From Bdellovibrionales bacterium CG12_big_fil_rev_8_21_14_0_65_38_15 (lineage in GTDB: Bacteria; Bdellovibrionota; Bacteriovoracia; Bacteriovoracales; Bacteriovoracaceae): a DNA stretch of 32,000 bases. Position numbers and translations under genes: made by a program. A model generated the notes under the pieces. That model was not told where the DNA came from. It saw nothing but the letters and a program-made list of their open reading frames with translations, and made no database searches. This document shows, piece by piece, positions 16,515-25,311 of the stretch; the stretch's first letter is position 1, and each line of letters begins with the position of its first letter. The DNA lies in contig PCUW01000067.1 of the NCBI GenBank assembly GCA_002787775.1, positions 28,948 to 60,947 of the forward strand. The letters are read 5' to 3'.

Positions 16515-16634
16515 AATCTCCCTACAGGGAGATTATATCAGATTATTTGATTAAACCAAGAAAAATCTCCCTAAAGGGAGATAATTAGAGTTTTGATAAT
16601 GAATAGACCTTAAAATCTCCCTGTAGGGAGATTT
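16515..16634. promoter_or_regulatory. Three hipB-proximal operator palindromes, ATCTCCCT-N2-AGGGAGAT
   Basis: AATCTCCCTACAGGGAGATT (16515-16534, overlaps the hipB SD and lies 3 nt from its ATG), ATCTCCCTAAAGGGAGAT (16565-16582), and AAATCTCCCTGTAGGGAGATTT (16613-16634). Centre-to-centre spacing is 49 and 50 bp. Confidence 0.7.
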
Positions 16635-16636
16635 TT

Positions 16637-17938
16637 TTATAATCTCGCTTCACGCAGGTCTAATGCTCTGATGTAGCTAAAAAGCATTCTTTGCATCTGA
16701 GGGGTTGAATGAAGATCAATCATTTCAGTCTCACTAGAATCAAAGACAAGCCTTTTGGGGACATAATCTTCGACCATCAAATGGCATGATTCGCCGCGCT
16801 TTCGGCCAGCTAACTGAAGAATAAAAGAGCTTTTTTTGGGTATAAGTCGATTGAAATTTTGTTTTAAAAGGTTGTTATAGAGTTCTTCGCCAAACTTATT
16901 TAAAAACTGGCTTTTCTTTGTTTCGAAATCAATTGAATCTTGTCCCGTATTTAAAAAGCTTTTATAGATATTATTAATGAATCCTTGTGAATTATTCTTA
17001 TTCTTAAACGAGCAAAGGCCGGTGTCATCATTTTTAAGTGTCGTTCGTTTAAGTTCAAAGGGATTGGATTTTTCACACAAGATAACATTGATTGGAAAAT
17101 AGGAACTTTTAAGAGCGACATTATAAGGTGGTCTTAGTTGAGCGATCTGACTATTTTCAAACAAGAGTGCTGCTAGCTCAGAACCCATGAGTTTGAATTC
17201 GATATTGGCCACGGCATTTTTTAGAGCAATATCTTTTTTACGTTTCATATCAGGGCGAAAATGGCTGGCCACACGCTTTTTAATATTTTTACTTTTACCG
17301 ATATAAAGAAGACCGCCTTCTTTGGAGTAGAAATAATAAACACCAGGCTTCTCGGGTAAAGATTCATAAACGCTTCGATCGAGATCCTTTGGAATATTCA
17401 GTTTTTTACTTTCAACAAACTGTTCTTTACCAAACTCGTTTTTAGAAAGTATTAACTTTAATAATTCCACTGTCGCTAAAGCATCACCAAGGGCTCTATG
17501 GCGAGCAGTAATATTAATTCCTAGATCATTACAAATATTTCCAAGTGAGTAGCTTTCATGCCCTGGTAAGAACTGTCTGGCGAGTCTCACGGTACAAAGC
17601 TTGTCTCGATTAAAGCTATAACCAAGCTCTCGAAATTCATGTTTAATGAAATTGAAGTCAAAGAAAACATTGTGAGCAACAAAGATATTGCCTTCAGTCA
17701 TCTCAACAATTTTTTTGGCAACCTCATAAAACTTTGGAGCGTCTCTAACCATTTCATTGTTGATACCGGTCAGACGTGTAATGCCATAAGGGATGCTGAT
17801 TTCGGGATTAATGAGGGTCGAGAACTGACCAACAACCTCGCTGCCATTAAAGTTAATAATGGCAATCTCGGTTATCTTATTACCACTGCGGTAGCCGCCA
17901 GTGGTTTCAATATCTATGATCGAATAGGTTTTTTCCAT
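16637..17938 (-). CDS. DEDDh 3'-5' exonuclease (DnaQ/epsilon-like) fused to a GIY-YIG nuclease domain (Cho-like architecture)
   Basis: Exo motifs IIDIETTG, FVAHNVFFDFNFI and HRALGDA. GIY-YIG motif PGVYYFYSKEGGLLYIGKSKNIKKRVASHF. Confidence 0.8.
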   Translation of the reverse strand: MEKTYSIIDIETTGGYRSGNKITEIAIINFNGSEVVGQFSTLINPEISIPYGITRLTGINNEMVRDAPKFYEVAKKIVEMTEGNIFVAHNVFFDFNFIKHEFRELGYSFNRDKLCTVRLARQFLPGHESYSLGNICNDLGINITARHRALGDALATVELLKLILSKNEFGKEQFVESKKLNIPKDLDRSVYESLPEKPGVYYFYSKEGGLLYIGKSKNIKKRVASHFRPDMKRKKDIALKNAVANIEFKLMGSELAALLFENSQIAQLRPPYNVALKSSYFPINVILCEKSNPFELKRTTLKNDDTGLCSFKNKNNSQGFINNIYKSFLNTGQDSIDFETKKSQFLNKFGEELYNNLLKQNFNRLIPKKSSFILQLAGRKRGESCHLMVEDYVPKRLVFDSSETEMIDLHSTPQMQRMLFSYIRALDLREARL

Positions 17939-18020
17939 TGCAGGAAAAGTACTTACTCAGCAATAACTTGTAAATCGCTGTGAAACTAAAGTCTTGCACT
18001 AGCCTCTCTTACGCTTACTT

Positions 18021-18055
18021 TATCCCCCGTATCCCGCAAACTGAATACTGAATAC
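18021..18055 (-). repeat. Heptamer-periodic repeat array A (5 units), 5 nt downstream of the ORF6N-1 stop
   Basis: Plus strand reads TATCCCC CGTATCC CGCAAAC TGAATAC TGAATAC. Confidence 0.7.
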
Positions 18056-18060
18056 CGCTC

Positions 18061-18582
18061 TTATTTTAGTCCGATCTTCTTTCTGTCTTTAGGAATTAAG
18101 GGAGTCGTCTTTTCATCTAGATCATCGAGTCTTTCAAAGACTGTTTTAAAAAGCGCATTCGTTCCTCGCTCGAGCTCATCAATCCGCCCACTTGGATCAA
18201 TAGCGTGAAAGCTTCGAAGCTTAACAAAGATGCGCATGATTTCGATGTTGATCGCGATGGCCTGTTTAGAATTTAGAACACTGGAGAGCATAGCTACTCC
18301 TAATTCAGTAAAGAGCATCGGAGAGCTTCTTCTCATGTAATTCCATGGCCTTAGGGGATTTGCGGTCGCAAATTGCGACCTCAAATCTTCTAACTCACTC
18401 AAATTACATTCAAACATAAAATCTATAGGGAACCTTTCAATATTTCTTCTAACCTGCTCATTCAATCGCTTGAGTTCAACTCCATACAGTTTAGCCAAAT
18501 CAGAATCTAACATCACTCGCTGTCCACGAATAAGAAAAACCATATTTTCAATTTGTGAAATTAACTTTAGTTCTTCGCTCAT
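18061..18582 (-). CDS. ORF6N-domain (KilA-N-related) DNA-binding protein, paralog 1
   Basis: LIRGQRVMLDSDLAKLYGVELKRLNEQVRRNIERFPIDFMFE...LRSQFAT...FTELGVAMLSSVLNS pattern. AGAGGTG RBS. Confidence 0.75.
   Translation of the reverse strand: MSEELKLISQIENMVFLIRGQRVMLDSDLAKLYGVELKRLNEQVRRNIERFPIDFMFECNLSELEDLRSQFATANPLRPWNYMRRSSPMLFTELGVAMLSSVLNSKQAIAINIEIMRIFVKLRSFHAIDPSGRIDELERGTNALFKTVFERLDDLDEKTTPLIPKDRKKIGLK
18357..18387. repeat. 31-nt near-perfect palindrome inside ORF6N-1 coding sequence
   Basis: GATTTGCGGTCGCAA-A-TTGCGACCTCAAATC. 15-bp arms with 1 mismatch. Encodes DLRSQFATAN. Confidence 0.8.
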
Positions 18583-18698
18583 AAAACACCTCTAGTGATG
18601 CTCTCGCAAAGAGACTGTTCATAAGATTGATTCTAAATTTTTGAAATTAATCGATCATAAGATAAGTGCATTACAATAATGATTCGTGATAAATTCAC

Positions 18699-18726
18699 TT
18701 ATCCCTGAATCCTGGATACCGATAAA
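18699..18726 (-). repeat. Heptamer-periodic repeat array B (about 4 units), 2 nt downstream of the 18729 gene stop
   Basis: TTATCCC TGAATCC TGGATAC CGATAAA, then TCACGCAC (18729-18736), which supplies the stop codon. Confidence 0.65.
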
Positions 18727-18728
18727 AT

Positions 18729-18989
18729 TCACGCACCAAAAACACGTTTTTCAAGTCGATCTAGTCGCTTTTTAAGATCTTGATCATTGTTTTGATCGAA
18801 GTAATCGCGAACAATTTCACGAAGAAGCTGCTGGTAATTCATTCCTCGTTTAACCGCTTCCTGCTTGAGATTGTCTCGCATACTTTCTTCCAAAAAGATG
18901 GTTGTTCGAATTTTTGGTTCAAGCATTAGATCTTCGTCGACTTCAACTTTTCCGTAGCGGATAGCATTCTTTTTAGTCTTCACCTTCAA
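18729..18989 (-). CDS. Putative ribbon-helix-helix (BrnA/CopG-like) antitoxin-type protein, partner of DUF4160-1
   Basis: KIRTTIFLEESMRDNLKQEAVKRGMNYQQLLREIVRDYF resembles RHH antitoxins. Has a 17-nt overlap with the upstream DUF4160 gene. Confidence 0.45.
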   Translation of the reverse strand: MKVKTKKNAIRYGKVEVDEDLMLEPKIRTTIFLEESMRDNLKQEAVKRGMNYQQLLREIVRDYFDQNNDQDLKKRLDRLEKRVFGA

Positions 18990-19251
18990 ACTCCTTCCAA
19001 GCTTGCATCAACTCTTTACGATGCTCTAAGACTTTTACTGAAAGCTTTGTTAAGGCCTTACTTGAAAAGCCAACGCTTGAAATACATTGCCCTGTTATGA
19101 TTTCAAACTTTGCATGAGCTTCACCTGCAATGACATGAACATGGGCCGGTCTGTGATCTTTTGGATAGATACAAAAGCGCACTCTGCCATAAATGATAAT
19201 CGTCGGCACACATTCTCCATACATTATATACATTTTATGAATATCAATCAA
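18973..19251 (-). CDS. DUF4160-domain protein 1. The start is ambiguous and could be the Met at 19233 or 19224.
   Basis: VPTIIIYGRVRFCIYPKDHRPAHVHV matches the DUF4160 N-terminal signature. Confidence 0.6.
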   Translation of the reverse strand: MIDIHKMYIMYGECVPTIIIYGRVRFCIYPKDHRPAHVHVIAGEAHAKFEIITGQCISSVGFSSKALTKLSVKVLEHRKELMQAWKEFEGED

Positions 19252-19341
19252 GATAGTCTTCTTAATGCACTAGATGCATGGATATGCTTGGTTCAAGGCT
19301 GTGGAAGTAATTGAAAATAAAAGACCAGTTGCAAAGCCTAT

Positions 19342-19380
19342 GCAATCTTTAAGGTCGCAATTTGCGACCTTAAAGATTGC
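19342..19380. repeat. 39-nt perfect intergenic palindrome (19-bp arms, 1-nt centre)
   Basis: GCAATCTTTAAGGTCGCAA-T-TTGCGACCTTAAAGATTGC. The core GGTCGCAATTTGCGACC is identical to the coding-sense core of the ORF6N-1 internal palindrome. Confidence 0.9.
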
Positions 19381-19391
19381 AGCTCTTCATC

Positions 19392-19440
19392 ATTCCCCTG
19401 CATCCTGCCTTCCGGATACTGCTCCCTGAATTCTGTTAGC
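19392..19440 (-). repeat. Heptamer-periodic repeat array C (7 units), 2 nt downstream of the 19443 gene stop
   Basis: ATTCCCC TGCATCC TGCCTTC CGGATAC TGCTCCC TGAATTC TGTTAGC, then TCACGCAC (19443-19450), which supplies the stop codon. Confidence 0.7.
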
Positions 19441-19442
19441 CG

Positions 19443-19919
19443 TCACGCACATTTCAGCTGAATATCTGCGCCTAAGATGACGAGCAGCTCTAGCATTTTA
19501 TCCATTGTCTTCTTTGTGTTAGTGGGATCGAGTAGTCTTGCAAGCTGAGAGGGTGAAGTTCTAAGTCTTTTGCAGATTTCATTTTTAGAGAGTTGCGTCG
19601 ACTTCAATTTATTAAGGGCGACATTAGTCATCTCAAAGAGAAACATTTTCTTGAGGTAATCCGGATTTCGATTGTAATCAAGAAATGCATCGAAAGGAAT
19701 GGAATCAACCTCGCCATTTTTAAGCATATACGTCACAGCCTCACTAGCGAGCTCCTGATCGACGAAAATCTCAATAACAGGGTTTTGCCGAGTTGGTTTA
19801 GTCGTAAGCTTTGCAAATGGGATGTTATAGACCTCCCCCTTCACCTCAATGGTAATTTTCTTGGCATAATTATTCACATTAACGGACTTAATTGTGATGT
19901 TGTTTTTTGAGTTCATCAA
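19443..19919 (-). CDS. Two-domain protein with a DUF2442-like N-terminus and a C-terminal XRE-type HTH, partner of DUF4160-2
   Basis: N-terminus ITIKSVNVNNYAKKITIEVKGEVYNIPFAKL. C-terminus LSKNEICKRLRTSPSQLARLLDPTNTKKTMDKMLELLVILG. Overlaps the upstream DUF4160 gene by about 30 nt. Confidence 0.5.
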   Translation of the reverse strand: MMNSKNNITIKSVNVNNYAKKITIEVKGEVYNIPFAKLTTKPTRQNPVIEIFVDQELASEAVTYMLKNGEVDSIPFDAFLDYNRNPDYLKKMFLFEMTNVALNKLKSTQLSKNEICKRLRTSPSQLARLLDPTNTKKTMDKMLELLVILGADIQLKCA

Positions 19920-20136
19920 AGCATCCTTCTATTTCAAGTTGATCAATGATTCGAAGTAATTTCTTCGACATTTGACCTTCTATCGCAACCTTAAGATTGA
20001 TCGCCCACTTGCAAACCATTCGTCCGTCTCGATAAATGTGGATATGGACTGGAGCATGATCATATAAGTACCAAACAATGATGTATCCAGCTCTCTTCAC
20101 CCTACCCAAGATCGACCCCCTTATGTTACCACACAT
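19888..20136 (-). CDS. DUF4160-domain protein 2. The start is uncertain and could be an internal GTG.
   Basis: GYIIVWYLYDHAPVHIHIYRDGRMV matches the DUF4160 signature. Confidence 0.55.
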   Translation of the reverse strand: MCGNIRGSILGRVKRAGYIIVWYLYDHAPVHIHIYRDGRMVCKWAINLKVAIEGQMSKKLLRIIDQLEIEGCFDELKKQHHN

Positions 20137-20146
20137 GGTAACATAA
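20121..20146. promoter_or_regulatory. 26-nt inverted repeat enclosing the annotated start codon of DUF4160-2. Candidate operator or translation-control hairpin.
   Basis: TTATGTTACCA-CACA-TGGTAACATAA, perfect 11-bp arms. The ATG complement lies at 20134-20136. Confidence 0.45.
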
Positions 20147-20274
20147 ATCCAATTTGATATCTTGGTTGTGCTTATTGCAAGGTTGTGCCGTTAAGCTAGC
20201 GAGTTAATTGCTTGAAATAAGAAGGAATAAAAAGGTGTCGATGCTAAAAAATCATAACGCTATTTTGAAACTGT

Positions 20275-20323
20275 GTGCCCCTGGATCCTGAATACCGTAT
20301 ACGGCATACTGAATACTGAAAAA
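20275..20323 (-). repeat. Heptamer-periodic repeat array D (7 units), 14 nt downstream of the ORF6N-2 stop
   Basis: GTGCCCC TGGATCC TGAATAC CGTATAC GGCATAC TGAATAC TGAAAAA, then TCACGCAC at 20328-20335. Confidence 0.7.
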
Positions 20324-20337
20324 AGAATCACGCACCC

Positions 20338-20862
20338 CTAACCTTTTTTGATTCCTATCTTGCTGCGCTTGCCTGGTAAGACTGGTGTTATCTTTTCATC
20401 AAGATCGTCGAGTCGCTCAAAGACAATTTTAAAAAGATGATTTGAGCCAACTTCAAGCTTATCCATGCGCTGTTTAAGGTCATTCTCAAGTAAAAGAAAG
20501 CTTCGAAGTTTGGTAAAGATTCGCATGATGGCGATGTTTACTTGAACCGCTTGTTCAGAGTTAAGCACGCTTGAAAGCATGGCCACGCCGTTTTCAGTGA
20601 ACACCATCGGAGCATATCGCGTCCCTCCATGCTCTAAACTTGAGGTGCCAAATTGGTACCTCAAGTTTGTAACCTCTTGATTATTCAGCTCAAACATAAA
20701 GTCCTCTGGAAACCTGGAGAGATTGCGTCGCACAGCTCTTTTAAGAAGCTTATTTTCCACTCCATAGAGTCGAGCCAAATCCGAATCGAGCATCACCCTC
20801 TGACCACGAATCACGTAGATCATATTCTCAATTTGTGAAATTAACTTTAGTTGATCGCTCAT
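20338..20862 (-). CDS. ORF6N-domain (KilA-N-related) DNA-binding protein, paralog 2
   Basis: MSDQLKLISQIENMIYVIRGQRVMLDSDLARLYGV is colinear with paralog 1. Start set at the internal Met, which has a GGAGG RBS. The first ~40 nt are nearly identical to paralog 1. The ORF track extends to 20883. Confidence 0.75.
   Translation of the reverse strand: MSDQLKLISQIENMIYVIRGQRVMLDSDLARLYGVENKLLKRAVRRNLSRFPEDFMFELNNQEVTNLRYQFGTSSLEHGGTRYAPMVFTENGVAMLSSVLNSEQAVQVNIAIMRIFTKLRSFLLLENDLKQRMDKLEVGSNHLFKIVFERLDDLDEKITPVLPGKRSKIGIKKG
20636..20668. repeat. 33-nt near-perfect palindrome inside ORF6N-2 coding sequence
   Basis: AAACTTGAGGTGCCAA-A-TTGGTACCTCAAGTTT. 16-bp arms with 1 mismatch. Sits at the position homologous to the paralog-1 palindrome. 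Confidence 0.8.
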
Positions 20863-20932
20863 ACACACCTCCGCTTTTACCAAGCAAGCTCATGAGCAAT
20901 TCAATAGATTGTAAGCGTATGAAGTTAGTGGA

Positions 20933-20963
20933 CCAAAAACAAAGCACATTTAAAAATGTGTGC
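20933..20963 (-). terminator. Weak candidate intrinsic terminator after the four-helix-bundle gene and array E
   Basis: Minus strand reads GCACACATTTTTAAATGTGC (5-6 bp stem) followed by TTTGTTTTTGG. The stem is short. Confidence 0.3.
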
Positions 20964-21001
20964 CCCTGAATACTGAATCCTGCATCCCGTATACTGAAAA
21001 A
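20960..21001 (-). repeat. Heptamer-periodic repeat array E (6 units), 7 nt downstream of the four-helix-bundle gene stop
   Basis: GTGCCCC TGAATAC TGAATCC TGCATCC CGTATAC TGAAAAA. Shares the TGTGTGCCCCTG prefix and TACTGAAAAA suffix with array D. Confidence 0.7.
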
Positions 21002-21008
21002 GCCCCCG

Positions 21009-21335
21009 TCAGGAGGCCTTAACCAGCTTATAAGAATGAGCGCAAACACTGTCACAAAGACGAATAAGTTCTTCGTCTACAGTCTTGGCCAAGAATAAAC
21101 AAGCTTGCACTTCTTTAGCTGAAGCATAGGCGTAGTTATACATTCTGCGCTTATCAAGTCTCGTTCTTCTAGCATTACCTTCAACCAGGTTTAAGACCAC
21201 TGAAGAGCTAGCACGGCGAAGCTGGTCTTTTAAGTAATAAGGAAGCTTTAGTTTGATGATCTGGTTGTAGAGAAGATCAGCGAGATGCAAGGTGCGAAAG
21301 TTTGAGTCAGTTTGTTTAGATGATTTTTGAAACAT
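21009..21335 (-). CDS. Four-helix-bundle protein (23S rRNA intervening-sequence protein family)
   Basis: LRRASSSVVLNLVEGNARRT...YAYASAKEVQACL pattern is typical of this family, recognised from memory. Confidence 0.65.
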   Translation of the reverse strand: MFQKSSKQTDSNFRTLHLADLLYNQIIKLKLPYYLKDQLRRASSSVVLNLVEGNARRTRLDKRRMYNYAYASAKEVQACLFLAKTVDEELIRLCDSVCAHSYKLVKAS

Positions 21336-21341
21336 GGTGTT

Positions 21342-21408
21342 CTCCTTTTTGAAATTTTTCCTTCACCATAAGTGAGGGAAAATTTCAAAAAGGAGAGCTG
21401 TTTTTTTT
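21342..21408. other. Long hairpin (about 24-bp stem) that includes the SD of the four-helix-bundle gene and is followed by T8 on the plus strand
   Basis: CTCCTTTTTGAAATTTTTCCTTCAC-CATAA-GTGAGGGAAAATTTCAAAAAGGAG (21342-21395; one bulge and one G:T). TTTTTTTT lies at 21401-21408. Confidence 0.6.
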
Positions 21409-21442: not shown

Positions 21443-21922
21443 TCACTGACCTAAGCGAGACTTCAATCGCGTTATAAACCTTTCGGCTCGGCCTGAGCCT
21501 GAAGCTTCATTTAGTATTATTGAACTATCATCGTACCTTGAAGATTTGGTAAGCATTTGATCTTTTTTGTACTCATCCACAAATTTATCAATATCTGCAC
21601 TAGTTTTCATTTTAGGAAAAATGTCTAAGTATTCTGGAGTAGAAACGAGTTCGGTTAAATAAGTTCCTATTCCTTTATCTGATTTATAAGCCGCACCTAA
21701 TTCAAACGGAACCCACATCGAACCTTCTGTATTTCTGGAGAATACAACTATAACATGACTGCACTTACTAAGATTGTTCATAATGTGCTTGGTGATATCA
21801 AACGCAGTCTTCGTTGATGGATCAAGGACATCTAGATAATAGTCTACACATTTAGATTGAAGTAGTGCTGCTAAATTCTTTGCTTTATATTCATCTGTTT
21901 TTCGGTGTGAAATAAAAATCAT
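21443..21922 (-). CDS. TIR-domain protein (stand-alone, TIR_2-like)
   Basis: MIFISHRKTDEYKAKNLAALL...VIVVFSRNTEGSMWVPFELGAAY, with a candidate catalytic Glu in FELG. A GAGGAAG SD overlaps the caspase stop. Confidence 0.7.
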   Translation of the reverse strand: MIFISHRKTDEYKAKNLAALLQSKCVDYYLDVLDPSTKTAFDITKHIMNNLSKCSHVIVVFSRNTEGSMWVPFELGAAYKSDKGIGTYLTELVSTPEYLDIFPKMKTSADIDKFVDEYKKDQMLTKSSRYDDSSIILNEASGSGRAERFITRLKSRLGQ

Positions 21923-21930
21923 AACTTCCT

Positions 21931-22890
21931 CTAAATTTTGTTAGCGTTTACTAAATGCCAGTAAAATTTTCCTAAAGCTGTTAGCTGACACGATTTACTT
22001 TCAATACAGGCCCAATAGAGATCAGGATCAGGTTCTCTATTCACTTTTATAAGACCAACTGTTTGTAATTTTTTGAGAATCTTAAACTTCTCTACATTCT
22101 CTACCTTTGCCTTTCTGTCAGTGTGCTCGTAGCTAGGATCTAGACTAAAAATGTGATCCGGATTGGTAAAAAGCATTTTAAGAGATAACAACTTTGAAAC
22201 ATCAACTTTTTGACCAGCTTGTCTAAGTGGAGTTGAACGAGATACGAAAGACTTAAATAGGGGTCTCTGTTCCCATGCCCCAAAGCTTTGTTCTACATGA
22301 GAGTAAATTCCCGATGGAGTTACAACACCCAACAAATCAGAAGCACTTCCTGAAAGAGCATCACAAACTAGAGAAGTGAAAATACCAGAACCGTTTACCT
22401 CAATCGCACTTTCGCTATCTCTACTAGCCGTTAAAATTGATACTCCTTCTCGAATTGAAACTGCATTGTTACCTAAAGTTGGAATTTGTCCAAAGGTTCC
22501 GCTTTGGCAACAATCTAAAACCACGACGATCTCTTTAACCTGCGAGGCTATAATATGGTTAAGAATATCCTGCATAGGCACGCCTTCATTATATTTCTCA
22601 GCATCTGATGCACAAAGGTACCCACCTAAATTTGTAGCTGTTCCGTGACCAGAAAAATATAAAAAGGCCATATCCGCAGGTTGAGCAAAAAGTTCTTCAA
22701 TTACTTTCTTCAATTCCTTACACGAAATATTTTGCCCATTTTCTGCCGTTAAAATCTTAGCATCAAAGTTCTTTGAACCGTCTGAATTCCTTGAGATCAA
22801 TGCTTCAATATGTTTTGCATCGTTTGCGCAACCATTTAAGTTACTTACATGGACATATTCATTTATACCGATAACCAGAGCCCGCTTCAT
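21931..22890 (-). CDS. Caspase-like (peptidase C14) protease with a ~110-aa C-terminal extension
   Basis: RALVIGINEY, catalytic His in LYFSGHG, catalytic Cys in VLDCCQSG. Start set at the internal Met, whose ATG overlaps the upstream TAA (TAATG). The ORF track extends to 22962. Confidence 0.85.
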   Translation of the reverse strand: MKRALVIGINEYVHVSNLNGCANDAKHIEALISRNSDGSKNFDAKILTAENGQNISCKELKKVIEELFAQPADMAFLYFSGHGTATNLGGYLCASDAEKYNEGVPMQDILNHIIASQVKEIVVVLDCCQSGTFGQIPTLGNNAVSIREGVSILTASRDSESAIEVNGSGIFTSLVCDALSGSASDLLGVVTPSGIYSHVEQSFGAWEQRPLFKSFVSRSTPLRQAGQKVDVSKLLSLKMLFTNPDHIFSLDPSYEHTDRKAKVENVEKFKILKKLQTVGLIKVNREPDPDLYWACIESKSCQLTALGKFYWHLVNANKI

Positions 22891-23309
22891 TAGTATGACC
22901 TCGACCGCATAGTTGGCCTCATTACAATATTTATCGCAGAAGTAATGCTCTCCCAATTCCAAGAAATCACCATGTTTCGAGGCAATCCCGTAGGTAAAGG
23001 TGTTCTTGTATTGGCTCCATCAACATATACTCCAAATACAGGTATATTATGTGCCGCTGCAAATCGTATCTCTTTAATTACACCTTTGGCGTAAGCTGTC
23101 TGCCTTCCAACTAGTACTATCATTAGGTTACACCGACTGATCTTTTCGGCAATTTTTCTTTCCCAAATAGATTGAGGAAGTGCCTCTTTTGAAGACCAAT
23201 CTGCAATATTAAAAGGTGTTCGACTGTTTTTTGCCTGACCAGAAAAAAGCAACTTATGGTTGGAATTATTATCAAAATCAAAACTAATAAAAGTTCTTGG
23301 AGTGCTCAT
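22890..23309 (-). CDS. ThsB-type TIR-like protein (DUF1863 / MTH538 TIR-like family)
   Basis: TFISFDFDNNSNHKLLFSGQAKNSRTPFNIADWS...CNLMIVLVGRQTAYAKGVIKEIRFA...PVFGVYV pattern. Confidence 0.7.
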   Translation of the reverse strand: MSTPRTFISFDFDNNSNHKLLFSGQAKNSRTPFNIADWSSKEALPQSIWERKIAEKISRCNLMIVLVGRQTAYAKGVIKEIRFAAAHNIPVFGVYVDGANTRTPLPTGLPRNMVISWNWESITSAINIVMRPTMRSRSY

Positions 23310-23318
23310 TTTGTATCC

Positions 23319-23516
23319 TTAGTTTTTATCTTTTGGTGGGCACGGATCGTTCCCATAACTGTTTTTTTCACTAATTTGTCCATTCGATTTATGAATGACG
23401 TGCTCAGTTTCAAAGCGCTTCGCTTTTGTACGATGAGTAGAAATTGTCACCCCACCTTGTTTGTTGACCCAACTATTACTATTCGGAACTGTATGAACTG
23501 GTTTTTTACCTGGCAT
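23319..23516 (-). CDS. DUF2188-family small protein (shortened)
   Basis: VHTVPNSNSWVNKQGG...VIHKSNGQISEKNSYGNDPCPPKDKN matches the DUF2188 C-terminal signature. AAGGAG RBS lies 8 nt upstream. Confidence 0.6.
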   Translation of the reverse strand: MPGKKPVHTVPNSNSWVNKQGGVTISTHRTKAKRFETEHVIHKSNGQISEKNSYGNDPCPPKDKN

Positions 23517-23539
23517 ATAGCATTCTCCTTTATATTATT

Positions 23540-23565
23540 CTGGTTAAATTAATCAGATTAACCAG
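23540..23565. promoter_or_regulatory. Nested inverted repeat just upstream of the DUF2188 RBS. Candidate operator of the TIR-caspase operon.
   Basis: CTGGTTAA-N10-TTAACCAG, containing the inner palindrome TTAATCAGATTAA (minus-strand reading TTAATCTGATTAA). Confidence 0.3.
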
Positions 23566-23570
23566 GGTTT

Positions 23571-23601
23571 AATAAAAAAACCGCATAAACACGGCTTATG
23601 C
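23571..23601 (-). terminator. Candidate intrinsic terminator ending the hsdMSR-GHKL-STAS transcription unit
   Basis: Minus strand reads GCATAA-GCCGTGT-TTATGC, then GG TTTTTTT ATT. The stem is short (6 bp) and AT-rich. Confidence 0.45.
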
Positions 23602-23648
23602 TTGAATGATATGTCAACATTCTCCTTAAGTCAAATTTTTTAAGCAGA

Positions 23649-24209
23649 TTATTTTACTGATGAAAACAGATATTCGAGTCCGCCGCTTTCGGCTGTTTCT
23701 TTAGAGCCAATTAAGAGACCTTGATTTAGAAGTTTTTTCAGCTTTCCACTTGCATTTGGGGCAGAGAGACCAAATTTCTCTGCAATCATAGAAGTCGTTA
23801 CATTTTCTCTACTCATAATATAACTGAAAATCTTCTGCGCATCTGAACTAAGCTCTGGACCAATGACTCTATAATCTTTACCACTTAGTACCAATAACGG
23901 TTGGTCCTTGAATCGTGCAGCATAATCCCAGTTATCTATCATATCGTCATTTGCAAAGTCTTTTAAATAAAAACTAATCTCCCCTCGCTTCTCTCTCGCT
24001 AATGAGATAACGCTTTCTCTTGGAAAAGAGGCATCAGTTCGTTTAATTCCTTTTAAAGAGATACCAATAACTTTAGCCTGTGGGTATTTCCCAATCTCTT
24101 TTTTTAGCTTTGCATGAACTGCCTGACCTTGATCATTTCCATAGGGCGAGTCATCTCTAACTAAATCATATAGAGAAATTATTATTTTTTTCTGGTTCAT
24201 TAGCTTCAT
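23649..24209 (-). CDS. STAS-like (DUF4325) domain protein with a C-terminal winged-helix
   Basis: AKVIGISLKGIKRTDASFPRESVISL resembles the DUF4325/anti-sigma-antagonist-like core. The C-terminus TTSMIAEKFGLSAPNASGKLKKLLNQGLLI resembles a wHTH. Start set at the Met 4 nt after the ATPase stop; 24200 is also possible. The ORF track extends to 24248. Confidence 0.5.
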   Translation of the reverse strand: MKLMNQKKIIISLYDLVRDDSPYGNDQGQAVHAKLKKEIGKYPQAKVIGISLKGIKRTDASFPRESVISLAREKRGEISFYLKDFANDDMIDNWDYAARFKDQPLLVLSGKDYRVIGPELSSDAQKIFSYIMSRENVTTSMIAEKFGLSAPNASGKLKKLLNQGLLIGSKETAESGGLEYLFSSVK

Positions 24210-24213
24210 TGAA

Positions 24214-25311
24214 TCAGGTTGAGTCTGATGCGTCAATATCAAAATCAAAACAGATATGTGTTCCTGAAATTTCTACAAGGTTAGGTAACATTTTAACTGG
24301 TAACAACTCTCCATTTTTAAAAATAAACTCTAAACTGAAATTATTCTGTCGAACAGAATACTTCGCATTAAATTTCAAAGCCTTTTCTTTACTGCTTTTA
24401 AATCCTAACCCGTGTCCAGATTTAGTTCCAAATCTTGTGATCCGGCCTTCACTCATTGCCTTTTTTACTAATTCAATATCTGAAAGCTCTAAAAGCTTTG
24501 GATAGAATTTTTTCAGAACAGGTCTCAATGTTGTTGCGATACCGACCCCATTGTCGGAAACGGTTGTTTGAATATGTGGAGGGCTACTTTTTGTTTTTCC
24601 TTTATATCTTTGAAGAGCTGCAAAACCCTTTAGTGAAGATCCACTGTGTTCTTTTATATTGCCAATTAGCTCAGATAATATTGTAAAAGCCGGATCTTCA
24701 TAATTATCGCTTGATAATGAAATAAATGTATCTGTAAGATGTCTAACTAGCTTCTTATTATCTGTCTCTGGATCAACTTCTCCGAACTCTACAAGATTTC
24801 CACTTTTGCCTTTATACGTTTTAGCAGATGATATTTTTGGGCGTTTAGGGAGAACATTTACTTTATCACTCAAATGATCAAAGAAACCGGCTCGATTCCA
24901 ATATGCTTTGGAGCTATTATTACTAGATAGGTCAATTGTAACTTCTTTCTTGCTTAGTACTAATTGATTGCATAGTGCCAAGAATCGAGCAATTGCTTCA
25001 AGCATAAACTTGCAATTTTCAGGAACAACAAACCGAATCTTATCAATTGTGTGGATGTCTTCTATCTCTATAGAAAGAGCCTCTTCAAATAAAAAACAAG
25101 TAACCCAACAATTATCAAATTTAACTACAATTTCTTCTGGCATTAATACCCACTCGAAATTTTCATTTTGATGAAACTCGACATCTTTGTGCTTGTGCAT
25201 AAGTGCGCTGACATCGCTTCGATCGAAACCTAGTTTTCTCGCAATAGCCCTAGCCTTTAAAGGACCTTCATCTTCAAGAAGTTTTTTTATCTGCTTTAGA
25301 GTTTTATCCAT
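24214..25311 (-). CDS. GHKL (histidine-kinase-like) ATPase with an N-terminal winged-helix. No sensor, DHp or phospho-acceptor His domain recognised.
   Basis: N-terminus LKARAIARKLGFDRSDVSALMHK (wHTH). N-box ELIGNIKEH, G1 VSDNGVGI, G2 KSGHGLGF. Confidence 0.7.
   Translation of the reverse strand: MDKTLKQIKKLLEDEGPLKARAIARKLGFDRSDVSALMHKHKDVEFHQNENFEWVLMPEEIVVKFDNCWVTCFLFEEALSIEIEDIHTIDKIRFVVPENCKFMLEAIARFLALCNQLVLSKKEVTIDLSSNNSSKAYWNRAGFFDHLSDKVNVLPKRPKISSAKTYKGKSGNLVEFGEVDPETDNKKLVRHLTDTFISLSSDNYEDPAFTILSELIGNIKEHSGSSLKGFAALQRYKGKTKSSPPHIQTTVSDNGVGIATTLRPVLKKFYPKLLELSDIELVKKAMSEGRITRFGTKSGHGLGFKSSKEKALKFNAKYSVRQNNFSLEFIFKNGELLPVKMLPNLVEISGTHICFDFDIDASDST

What the first reader, a model, noticed from the sequence alone, without database searches (positions are those of the whole stretch)
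18021..21001. 7-nt-periodic repeat arrays abut the stop codon of five consecutive small cassettes
Seen directly: each of five consecutive minus-strand units is followed within 2-14 nt of its stop codon by 4-7 tandem degenerate heptamers. The units are ORF6N-1, the DUF4160-1/RHH pair, the DUF4160-2/HTH pair, ORF6N-2 and the four-helix-bundle gene.

The plus-strand heptamer consensus is YGNATMC (TGAATAC, TGAATCC, TGCATCC, CGTATAC, TGGATAC and similar). Every array starts with a ...CCCC unit. The arrays are:
- A: 18021-18055
- B: 18699-18726
- C: 19392-19440
- D: 20275-20323
- E: 20960-21001

Three arrays (B, C, D) are separated from the gene by the same octamer, TCACGCAC. In B and C this octamer provides the last two codons and the TGA stop (...GA*, ...CA*), so the repeat module forms the 3' end of the ORF.

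In mRNA sense the units read GGAUUCA / GGAUGCA / GUAUUCA / GGAUACG. These are clustered GGA motifs reminiscent of CsrA/RsmA-binding repeats.

Inference: this may be a cassette-junction element (recombination or mobilisation) or a 3'-UTR protein-binding module. I did not notice this repeat anywhere else in the window.
Basis: partly seen in the sequence, partly recalled or inferred. Interest (0 to 1): 0.65.

Follow-up and report, generated by a model that had tools for sequence, protein, structure and literature searches.

The report
Heptamer arrays marking gene-cassette boundaries
Five short runs of a degenerate 7-base repeat sit directly behind the stop codons of consecutive small gene cassettes in a predatory-bacterium-like genome. 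Comparison with two related genomes shows that the neighbouring cassettes change at or close to these runs, so they mark, and probably help create, the joints of a shuffled defence and toxin-antitoxin island.

Summary
Five arrays of YGNATMC heptamers (plus strand) lie 2-14 nt from the stop codons of five consecutive minus-strand units and nowhere else in the 32 kb window. The octamer TCACGCAC occurs three times, only at arrays B, C and D.

The arrays resemble a known, function-unknown class: polar heptameric intergenic repeats that sit flush with gene ends (Rehm 2015, Xanthomonas and Nostoc). I found a sibling class, CCC(YGNATCC)n, in many phyla and in phage contigs. The window arrays are a low-GC, degenerate version with too few G-tracts for a quadruplex.

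What is new is the context. In two related Bacteriovoracaceae-like genomes the same island carries different cassettes.
- A 94 %-identical block ends exactly at the C-run end of array E.
- A three-gene insert in one relative is flanked by two copies of the gene-end, terminator and array module.
- Array D is a mosaic, and orthologous arrays differ in unit number.

Best reading (confidence 0.45): the arrays are the 3' boundary module of self-contained cassettes and the short shared homology at which cassettes are exchanged. No recombinase was found. CsrA binding and integron attC membership are not supported.

The parts
18021..18055 (-). Array A. On the coding (minus) strand it reads GTATTCA GTATTCA GTTTGCG GGATACG GGGGATA. 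It lies 5 nt behind the ORF6N-1 stop.
   Evidence: The outer units are shared with array D (D6). The orthologous array in L155 has about 9 units.
18699..18726 (-). Array B, 4 units, 2 nt behind the stop of the RHH gene.
18729..18736 (-). Octamer GTGCGTGA (plus strand TCACGCAC), which supplies ..G A stop of the RHH gene.
19392..19440 (-). Array C, 7 degenerate units, 2 nt behind the stop of the 158-aa HTH gene.
19443..19450 (-). Octamer GTGCGTGA, which supplies ..C A stop of the HTH gene. It is conserved in the L157 orthologue.
20275..20323 (-). Array D, 7 units, 14 nt behind the ORF6N-2 stop. It is a mosaic: the inner part and flank resemble E, the outer part resembles A.
   Evidence: D6, D7
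20328..20335 (-). Octamer GTGCGTGA, here non-coding, between the ORF6N-2 stop and the T-tract.
20960..21001 (-). Array E, 6 units, 7 nt behind the stop of the four-helix-bundle gene. The 94 % homology with L155 ends at 20963, at the C-run end of the array.
21003..21015 (-). Terminator-like hairpin CTCCTGACGGGGG plus a T-run. It overlaps the stop of the four-helix-bundle gene and precedes array E.
20940..20966 (-). Second small hairpin and U-rich tail directly after the G-run of array E. A similar linker recurs in L155 without any array.
   Evidence: inferred
18061..18582 (-). ORF6N-1 cassette gene.
18729..19251 (-). DUF4160-1 / RHH pair (overlapping genes). A contig of run X24 joins the window across this stretch, skipping the pair.
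19443..20136 (-). DUF4160-2 / HTH pair. The same cassette is 86 % identical in L157, where its neighbours are different.
20338..20862 (-). ORF6N-2 cassette gene.
21009..21335 (-). Four-helix-bundle (23S_rRNA_IVP family) gene, the last gene of the block conserved with L155.

Best explanation
What it is. The arrays are the 3' boundary module of small, self-contained gene cassettes in a variable defence and toxin-antitoxin island. The genome is Bacteriovoracaceae-like and comes from groundwater.

Anatomy. Read on the coding strand, each cassette consists of:
- its own upstream region;
- one or two genes;
- a short terminator-like hairpin, or the octamer GTGCGTGA followed by a T-tract;
- 3-7 degenerate heptamers (G[G/T]ATNCR);
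- a closing run of 3-5 G.

Origin of the repeat. It is a low-GC, degenerate relative of a widespread, polar class of heptameric intergenic simple-sequence arrays that sit flush with gene ends.

How it most likely works. Every cassette ends in the same kind of short repeat, in the same orientation, and the repeat tolerates shifts of register. Recombination between arrays, or between the short modules around them, can therefore swap, duplicate or delete cassettes. It could act within the island or on incoming DNA, through short-homology recombination and slippage, and no dedicated recombinase is encoded nearby. Replication slippage changes the number of units.

Shown: the arrays exist and are enriched; their orientation and position; their confinement to the cassette zone; cassette content that differs between relatives, with breakpoints at or near arrays; one duplicated junction module; one mosaic array.

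Inferred: that the arrays are the substrate of the exchange rather than passive cassette ends; the type of recombination; any additional role with the adjacent hairpins in insulating cassette transcription.
For: 1. Enrichment and confinement. 11 dimer matches against 0.67 expected, all inside the arrays. There are no arrays elsewhere in the window, none in the core-gene flanks of L155 and L157, and none at four ORF6N loci of more distant Bdellovibrionota: L159, L161, L162, L163.

2. Same chromosomal site, different cassettes. The window, L155 and L157 all border the RF-1-family and DTW genes. L155 shares the HATPase/TIR/caspase/TIR/four-helix-bundle block but then carries ABC-ATPase/ankyrin/168-aa, BrnT/BrnA, Gp49/HTH, ORF6N, a 170-aa gene and ORF6N. 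L157 carries yet another order.

3. Breakpoints.
- L155 1-3938 equals window 24864-20963 at 94 % identity. Homology stops at the C-run end of array E, and the three aligned copies diverge immediately after the terminal CAGGGG.
- The left end of the 170-aa cassette in L155 and L157 starts at the G-run GGGGGAGGGATGGCA, behind arrays that belong to different upstream genes.
- Homology around ORF6N-1 ends inside array A against L155 and at its outer end against L157.

4. Duplication. In L155 a second copy of the last ~40 nt of the four-helix-bundle gene, with terminator and array, follows the inserted three-gene block, as expected after a single crossover in that module.

5. Mosaic and length change.
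- Array D shares its inner flank and first units with E (80 % over 50 nt) and its outer units with A (88 % over 26 nt).
- Array A has 5 units against about 9 in L155.
- A ~45-nt hairpin-plus-array segment is present in L155 and absent in L157 between the same gene and the same downstream cassette.

6. Module fused to unrelated genes. The octamer supplies the final codons and stop of RHH, of the HTH protein, and in L155 of a dnstrm_HI1420-family protein.

7. Shuffling in a further relative. A contig of marine run X24 joins window 18670 to 19345 and so skips the RHH/DUF4160-1 cassette, while another contig of the same run carries that cassette with other flanks.
Against: - No integrase, transposase or other recombinase is present in the window or in the 20-kb relatives.
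- The arrays are short (28-49 nt) and degenerate, which makes them poor substrates for RecA-type recombination.
- Some breakpoints lie 30-60 nt from an array rather than in it.
- The arrays may simply travel with the upstream gene, so homology would end after them whatever causes the exchange.
- The described sibling class in Xanthomonas is associated with more stable, not less stable, neighbourhoods (PMC4692102).
- In the wider class, arrays are conserved at orthologous sites at about 80 % flank identity, which suggests a gene-end function unrelated to cassette exchange.
- Only three genomes could be compared.
- No population variants were seen in four assemblies of the same population.
Confidence: 0.45

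Rival explanations
1. Generic gene-end repeat. The arrays are ordinary members of the polar heptameric repeat class. They act at the gene end itself, for example as non-B DNA or RNA, as a transcription insulator, as a 3'-end stabiliser, or as a neutral product of slippage from a C/G-run. They coincide with cassette joints only because they are tightly linked to each upstream gene.
For: - A class with the same unit, CCC(YGNATCC)n, is found in Acidobacteriota, Planctomycetota, Gemmatimonadota, several classes of Pseudomonadota (for example Alcanivorax, Gallionellaceae, Rhodospirillaceae), Bacteroidota, Verrucomicrobiota and phage contigs.
- Its outer end often lies only 0-12 nt from a gene start (same strand, 60 arrays) or a gene stop (opposite strand, 59 arrays).
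- 34 of 132 arrays have an inverted partner on the C-run side and 0 of 132 on the other side.
- Period-7 arrays outnumber other periods: 209 against 6-28.
- Arrays are conserved at orthologous sites.
- The same behaviour is published for GGGAATC and GGGGA(C/T)T repeats (PMC4692102).
- Vestigial 'heptamer + G-run' sequences follow 60 %-identical four-helix-bundle genes in L164 and L165.
Against: - In the window and in L155 the arrays are confined to the cassette zone and absent from about 45 kb of flanking core genes.
- Three independent breakpoints fall exactly at the G-run.
- A junction module is duplicated around an insert, and array D is a mosaic.
- The window arrays lack the G-tracts needed for a quadruplex and show no stable fold.
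Confidence: 0.3
2. Operator or upstream promoter element. The arrays lie roughly 20-140 nt upstream of the next cassette's promoter and are bound by a cassette-encoded DNA-binding protein (ORF6N, RHH or HTH) that co-regulates the island.
For: - Each array lies 83-170 nt upstream of the next start codon.
- In L155 the G-run lies about 27 nt upstream of an extended -10-like TGCTATAAT (read directly from the sequence).
- The island is rich in small DNA-binding proteins.
Against: - The distance to the next gene varies widely.
- Arrays can be absent between the same gene and the same downstream cassette.
- In the wider class many arrays end 1-12 nt from a start codon, which leaves no room for a promoter.
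- A 7-bp direct-repeat spacing puts successive sites on different faces of the helix (established knowledge of B-DNA geometry).
Confidence: 0.08
3. Novel site-specific recombination site. The arrays work like integron attC sites: a recombinase encoded elsewhere in the genome recognises the heptamers and G-run and inserts or excises circular cassettes.
For: - The cassettes are co-oriented, and each ends in the element.
- Breakpoints fall at a fixed end of the element.
- Direct repeats of the junction module flank an insert in L155, the pattern expected after integration of a circle.
Against: - There are no attC core-site pairs.
- The arrays have no hairpin structure.
- No integrase is present in the window or in the relatives.
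- The cassettes appear to carry their own upstream regions.
- Unit number and sequence vary freely.
Confidence: 0.1
4. 3'-UTR module for CsrA/RsmA or another single-strand RNA-binding protein. Clustered GGA or GUA heptamers in the 3'-UTR bind or titrate the protein and alter transcript fate.
For: - In the mRNA sense the units read CAGGAUU, CAGGAUG and CGGGAUG, which resemble the CsrB repeat CAGGA(U/C/A)G (from memory).
- All 13 arrays seen in this lineage have the G-rich strand as the coding strand.
- The arrays are predicted to be unstructured.
Against: - Only 11 GGA motifs occur in 29 units, and many units are GUAUUCA.
- GGA is not placed in hairpin loops.
- There is no Rfam match.
- Array E lies behind a terminator-like hairpin.
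- In the wider class the strand is neutral with respect to genes.
- No RNA data exist for this organism.
Confidence: 0.05

Closest known systems
Heptameric G-rich intergenic repeats GGGAATC/(GGGANTN)n of Xanthomonas and GGGGA(C/T)T of Nostoc (Rehm et al. 2015, PMC4692102)
   Same: - 7-nt tandem units with heterogeneous copies.
- Intergenic and close to one neighbouring ORF.
- The G-rich strand is the coding strand behind stop codons, or the non-coding strand before starts.
- Unit number varies between relatives.
- Function unknown.
The wider class I found also shares convergent inverted pairs and typical lengths of 3-5 units.
   Different: - The unit differs: GGATNCR here and G[G/T]ATNCR in the window, against GGGANTN.
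- The window arrays have too few G-tracts for a quadruplex.
- They are clustered at cassette joints of one island rather than dispersed.
- There are no inverted pairs in the window.
- Here the neighbourhood is variable, whereas Rehm et al. report increased stability.
TAACTGA heptamer direct repeats of marine Beggiatoaceae, cyanobacteria and some Bacteroidetes (MacGregor 2015, PMC4679880)
   Same: Short tandem heptamers, 2-6 copies, intergenic, within a few nucleotides of coding boundaries. The phylogenetic distribution is patchy and the binding factor is unknown.
   Different: The unit is different. Those repeats lie on the sense strand just upstream of start codons. The window arrays lie behind stop codons with the G-rich strand in the sense orientation.
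Integron attC sites and attC clusters without an integrase (CALINs)
   Same: One element at the 3' end of every co-oriented cassette. It can overlap the stop codon. Cassette order differs between relatives at the element.
   Different: There is no imperfect inverted repeat, no core sites and no integrase. The cassettes seem to carry their own promoters. The element is a tandem repeat of variable length.
REP/BIME and other mosaic intergenic repeats (E. coli BIMEs, Neisseria NIMEs; from memory)
   Same: Short modules recur in different combinations behind stop codons. They are found together with small hairpins. Roles proposed for those families include transcript ends and recombination.
   Different: REP units are palindromes spread genome-wide and mobilised by RAYT transposases. 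Here the units are tandem heptamers, not palindromic, and local.

Membership tests
Heptameric G-rich intergenic SSRs (Rehm 2015 type) | Tandem 7-nt units with heterogeneous copies | tested here: met
   period 7, 4-7 units per array, 11 dimer matches against 0.67 expected.
Heptameric G-rich intergenic SSRs (Rehm 2015 type) | A G3 tract in every unit and at least four tracts (quadruplex potential) | tested here: not met
   arrays A, D and E have 2-3 tracts of two or more G, and many units are GTATTCA.
Heptameric G-rich intergenic SSRs (Rehm 2015 type) | Flush with one neighbouring ORF, with the G-rich strand as coding strand behind the stop codon | tested here: met
   gaps of 2-14 nt to the stop and 83-170 nt to the next start.
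Heptameric G-rich intergenic SSRs (Rehm 2015 type) | Frequent convergent inverted pairs | tested here: not met
   all matches in the window are on one strand. In the wider class 34 of 132 arrays are paired.
Heptameric G-rich intergenic SSRs (Rehm 2015 type) | Dispersed over the whole genome | tested here: inconclusive
   The arrays are clustered in 3 kb of the 32 kb window.
Integron attC site | Imperfect inverted repeat that folds into a hairpin | tested here: not met
   folds of junctions A, B and D have z about -0.5, and the heptamers stay largely unpaired.
Integron attC site | Core sites RYYYAAC ... GTTRRRY at the ends | tested here: not met
   0 pairs in 17901-21400, against a shuffle mean of 0.89.
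Integron attC site | Integron integrase next to the array | tested here: not met
   Pfam scans of the main window ORFs and the gene tables of the relatives show no integrase.
Integron attC site | Co-oriented cassettes whose boundaries coincide with the site | tested here: met
CsrA/RsmA binding sites or sponge RNA | Several GGA motifs presented in hairpin loops | tested here: not met
   11 GGA in 29 units; no loop presentation.
CsrA/RsmA binding sites or sponge RNA | Match to a curated CsrB/RsmX/Y/Z family | tested here: not met
   no Rfam match in the window.
CsrA/RsmA binding sites or sponge RNA | Binding by the host CsrA | not testable with these tools
TAACTGA-type heptamer repeats (MacGregor 2015) | Unit TAACTGA on the sense strand within a few nucleotides upstream of a start codon | tested here: not met
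   The unit is different, and the window arrays lie behind stop codons.
REP/BIME/REPIN | Each unit is an imperfect palindrome and occurs in many dispersed copies | tested here: not met
   The units are tandem, not palindromic, and the copies are local.

The most novel reading that the evidence does not exclude
The heptamer array with its G-run is the recombination site of a previously unrecognised cassette-exchange system. The system would be integron-like in outcome but would use tandem heptamers instead of attC hairpins, with the enzyme encoded elsewhere. It would assemble defence and toxin-antitoxin islands in Bdellovibrionota. The widespread CCC(YGNATCC)n arrays in other phyla would then be sites of the same kind.
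Probability: 0.12. Interest if true: 0.85.

Novelty: new variant of a known kind. Interest (0 to 1): 0.5.

Why it matters
Heptameric intergenic repeats are among the most abundant simple repeats in bacteria, and no function has been assigned to them. Here a degenerate member of that kind marks the exact joints of a shuffled defence and toxin-antitoxin island.

If the arrays are the sites of exchange, they would explain how small immunity and addiction cassettes are assembled next to restriction-modification systems without an integron. That would give the repeat class a testable role.

The same unit in many phyla, with strict polarity towards gene ends, also extends the published Xanthomonas and Nostoc observation to a much broader range of bacteria and to phages.

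Tried and rejected
- Rfam, at gathering thresholds, on the window and on 18 array-bearing loci: nothing covers the arrays.
- Full-text search for the repeat strings: no relevant paper.
- Orientation of the wider class relative to GC skew or replication: none, 49 against 52.
- Orientation relative to genes: none, 60 against 59. This argues against a single sense-strand RNA role.
- RNA structure of the arrays: none beyond the neighbouring hairpins.
- attC core sites: none.
- Recombinase in the window: none.
- Link to ORF6N genes as such: rejected, because four ORF6N loci outside the island have no arrays.
- tRNA T-loop origin of CGAATCC: rejected. The variable position of the heptamer corresponds to the invariant A58 (reasoning from established tRNA knowledge).
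- Metagenome scan for the terminator plus first heptamer of junction E: 0 hits. That collection seems not to hold this lineage.
- RNA-seq: only DNA metagenomes hold the sequence.
- Population variants in four assemblies of the same population: none at the arrays. Contigs only, so rare variants would be missed.

Full report
**Observation.**
- The dimer YGNATMCYGNATMC with up to one mismatch gives 11 matches against 0.67 expected. All are on the + strand and all lie inside arrays A, B, D and E.
- A looser array finder also recovers the more degenerate array C. It finds nothing else in the 32 kb.
- Tandem Repeats Finder reports period 7 at A, D and E.
- The repeat finder finds one copy per array of a 17-nt core, CTGNATMCTGNATMCCG (D5).
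- The gaps to the stop codons are 5, 2, 2, 14 and 7 nt.
- The octamer TCACGCAC occurs three times against 0.28 expected, only at arrays B, C and D. In B and C it encodes the last residues and the stop codon.
- Pfam confirms the genes: ORF6N twice, DUF4160 twice, an RHH/CopG-like protein, a weak HTH and a 23S_rRNA_IVP four-helix-bundle protein.
- Corrections: array B begins with CCC only. The final TGAAAAA of D and E is the T-tract behind the octamer or the terminator-like hairpin.

**Setting.**
- The window holds a type I restriction-modification operon. It is followed by an HATPase protein and a winged-helix protein, a TIR/caspase/TIR group, the four-helix-bundle gene, the five small units, a DnaQ-GIY-YIG nuclease, hipBA, and then core genes.
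- There is no integrase, transposase or tRNA gene.
- The same sequence occurs in a groundwater genome assembly (GCA_002787575.1) and in many groundwater and aquifer metagenomes.
- The best protein matches carry Bdellovibrio, Bacteriovorax and Bacteriovoracaceae names.
- No RNA run holds the sequence.

**The repeat belongs to a wider class.**
I scanned two public collections with CCC + 3 x YGNATMC.

Nearly all hits are CCC(TGAATCC/CGAATCC/CGCATCC/TGCATCC)n. They come from Acidobacteriota, Planctomycetota, Gemmatimonadota, Alcanivorax, Gallionellaceae, Lysobacterales, Bacteroidota, Verrucomicrobiota and others.

The class has these properties:
- It is strictly polar. The end opposite the C-run often lies only 0-12 nt from a gene boundary. 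That boundary is as often a start on the same strand (60 arrays) as a stop on the opposite strand (59 arrays).
- 34 of 132 arrays have an inverted partner on the C-run side, and none has one on the other side.
- There is no bias with GC skew.
- In the hit loci, period-7 arrays (209) far outnumber those of periods 5, 6, 8 and 9 (6-28).
- Arrays are kept at orthologous sites between genomes about 80 % identical.
- No Rfam family covers them, and no paper holds the strings.

A sibling class is already described. Rehm et al. 2015 (PMC4692102) report GGGAATC/(GGGANTN)n in Xanthomonas and GGGGA(C/T)T in Nostoc. Those repeats show the same position rule, convergent pairs, a preference for four units and quadruplex formation in vitro, and their function is unknown. 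MacGregor 2015 (PMC4679880) describes TAACTGA heptamers just upstream of start codons.

The window arrays fit this kind in period, polarity and position. They differ in the unit and lack enough G-tracts for a quadruplex.

**What is specific here: cassette joints.**
Two relatives carry the same island at the same chromosomal site, next to the RF-1-family and DTW genes, but with different cassettes.

1. L155 matches window 24864-20963 at 94 % identity, and the match ends at the C-run end of array E. Written out, the window junction and both L155 copies share the gene end, the terminator and the heptamers, then diverge immediately after the terminal CAGGGG.
2. The second L155 copy contains the last ~40 nt of the four-helix-bundle gene, the terminator and an array. 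It follows an inserted ABC-ATPase/ankyrin/168-aa block. This is the pattern left by a single crossover in that module.
3. The 170-aa cassette begins at the same G-run in L155 and L157, behind arrays that belong to different upstream genes.
4. The DUF4160-2/HTH cassette is 86 % identical in L157 but has other neighbours there.
5. In L157 the ORF6N-1 orthologue is followed directly by the orthologue of the 133-aa gene. It has no array, no nuclease gene and no hipBA, and the homology ends at the outer end of array A.
6. Array A has 5 units and its L155 orthologue about 9.
7. A hairpin-plus-array segment of about 45 nt is present in L155 and absent in L157 between identical flanks.
8. One L155 junction has the octamer and T-tract but no heptamers. 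It is fused to the linker that follows array E in the window.
9. Array D shares its inner flank and first units with E and its outer units with A.
10. A contig of marine run X24 joins the window across the RHH/DUF4160-1 cassette, skipping it.

Arrays occur at seven junctions of the L155 cassette zone, always with the same strand relation to the genes. None occur in the flanking core genes. Four ORF6N loci outside such islands have none.

**Mechanism.**
The joints of this island are mosaics of short shared modules: octamer or hairpin, T-tract, heptamers, G-run and linker.

I infer that each array is the 3' boundary module of a self-contained cassette. Recombination within or beside these co-oriented, register-tolerant repeats would exchange, duplicate and delete cassettes, and slippage would alter unit number.

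This is inference. No enzyme was found, the arrays are short, and some breakpoints lie 30-60 nt away from an array.

The main rival is that the arrays are generic gene-end repeats that merely travel with the upstream gene. The wide distribution of the class and its conservation support that rival. So does the report of stable neighbourhoods in Xanthomonas (PMC4692102).

The remaining rivals are weaker:
- CsrA binding is not supported.
- attC membership fails three of four defining features.
- An operator role for the next promoter remains possible but does not fit the variable spacing or the presence/absence cases.

**Verdict.**
The feature is real, and its significance holds. It is a new variant of a known kind of repeat. 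Its link to cassette shuffling is new and only partly demonstrated, and its molecular function remains unproven.

Noticed in passing
window 18359-18389 and 20636-20668 (inside ORF6N-1 and ORF6N-2); free-standing copy at 19341-19381: All 10 ORF6N genes examined (window, L155, L157, L159, L161-L163) have their best palindrome at the same codon (~71, motif LRSQFAT), with 12-16-nt arms. The arms co-vary: S/A, S/V, C/G and Y/G residue pairs keep the symmetry, wobble positions included. A perfect copy with 20-nt arms stands alone next to array C. In the metagenome assemblies the 32-nt core has 5-14 times the depth of its flanks and breaks contigs. This looks like a nucleic-acid element embedded in the coding sequence.
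   Followed up: partly
window 16515-16636: Three copies of a 22-nt palindrome, AATCTCCCTnnAGGGAGATT, spaced 49-50 nt apart, lie directly upstream of the hipB-like HTH gene of a hipBA pair. They are probably HipB operators (D8).
   Followed up: no
L010-L154 (viral and bacterial loci): CCC(YGNATCC)n heptamer arrays occur in many phyla and in phage contigs. They are strictly polar towards gene ends. About a quarter form inverted pairs that span whole intergenic regions, from the stop codon of one gene to the start codon of the next. The interior is variable and the two arms are of unequal length.
   Followed up: partly
L047, L055, L077, L093 (Alcanivorax and Alloalcanivorax): A second heptamer family, CTTGAAG/CTTGCAA, flanks the (TGNATCC)4 arrays. 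Together they form nested mosaic intergenic elements with small GC-rich hairpins.
   Followed up: no
L155 6553-6572, 9840-9852, 10578-10597; L157 about 6890 and 9700: A recurrent mini-hairpin, (G)AGGTGCCATGCACC followed by TTTTG, lies beside several arrays in the relatives but is absent from the window. It is probably a small terminator module that moves independently of the arrays.
   Followed up: partly
window 18630-18650 compared with 18544-18564 and 20824-20844: The region upstream of ORF6N-1 contains a 21-nt sequence that is 86-90 % identical to the 5' coding region of both ORF6N genes (D9). It may be an autoregulatory site or a gene fragment.
   Followed up: no
window 21341-21396: An inverted repeat with 22-nt arms, 95 % complementary, lies between the TIR gene and the four-helix-bundle gene and is conserved in L155. 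It is probably a bidirectional terminator. There is no heptamer array at this junction.
   Followed up: no
window 21443-25311: Downstream of the type I R-M operon lie a TIR-like protein, a caspase-family peptidase, a second TIR protein, a DUF2188 protein, and an HATPase protein paired with a winged-helix protein. This composition looks like a defence island, and the block is 94 % conserved in L155.
   Followed up: no
window 20290-20324 in run X24: A marine metagenome shows word depth of about 5,000 over part of array D, carried by three contigs with two substitutions. An abundant organism in that sample carries a very similar heptamer array.
   Followed up: no
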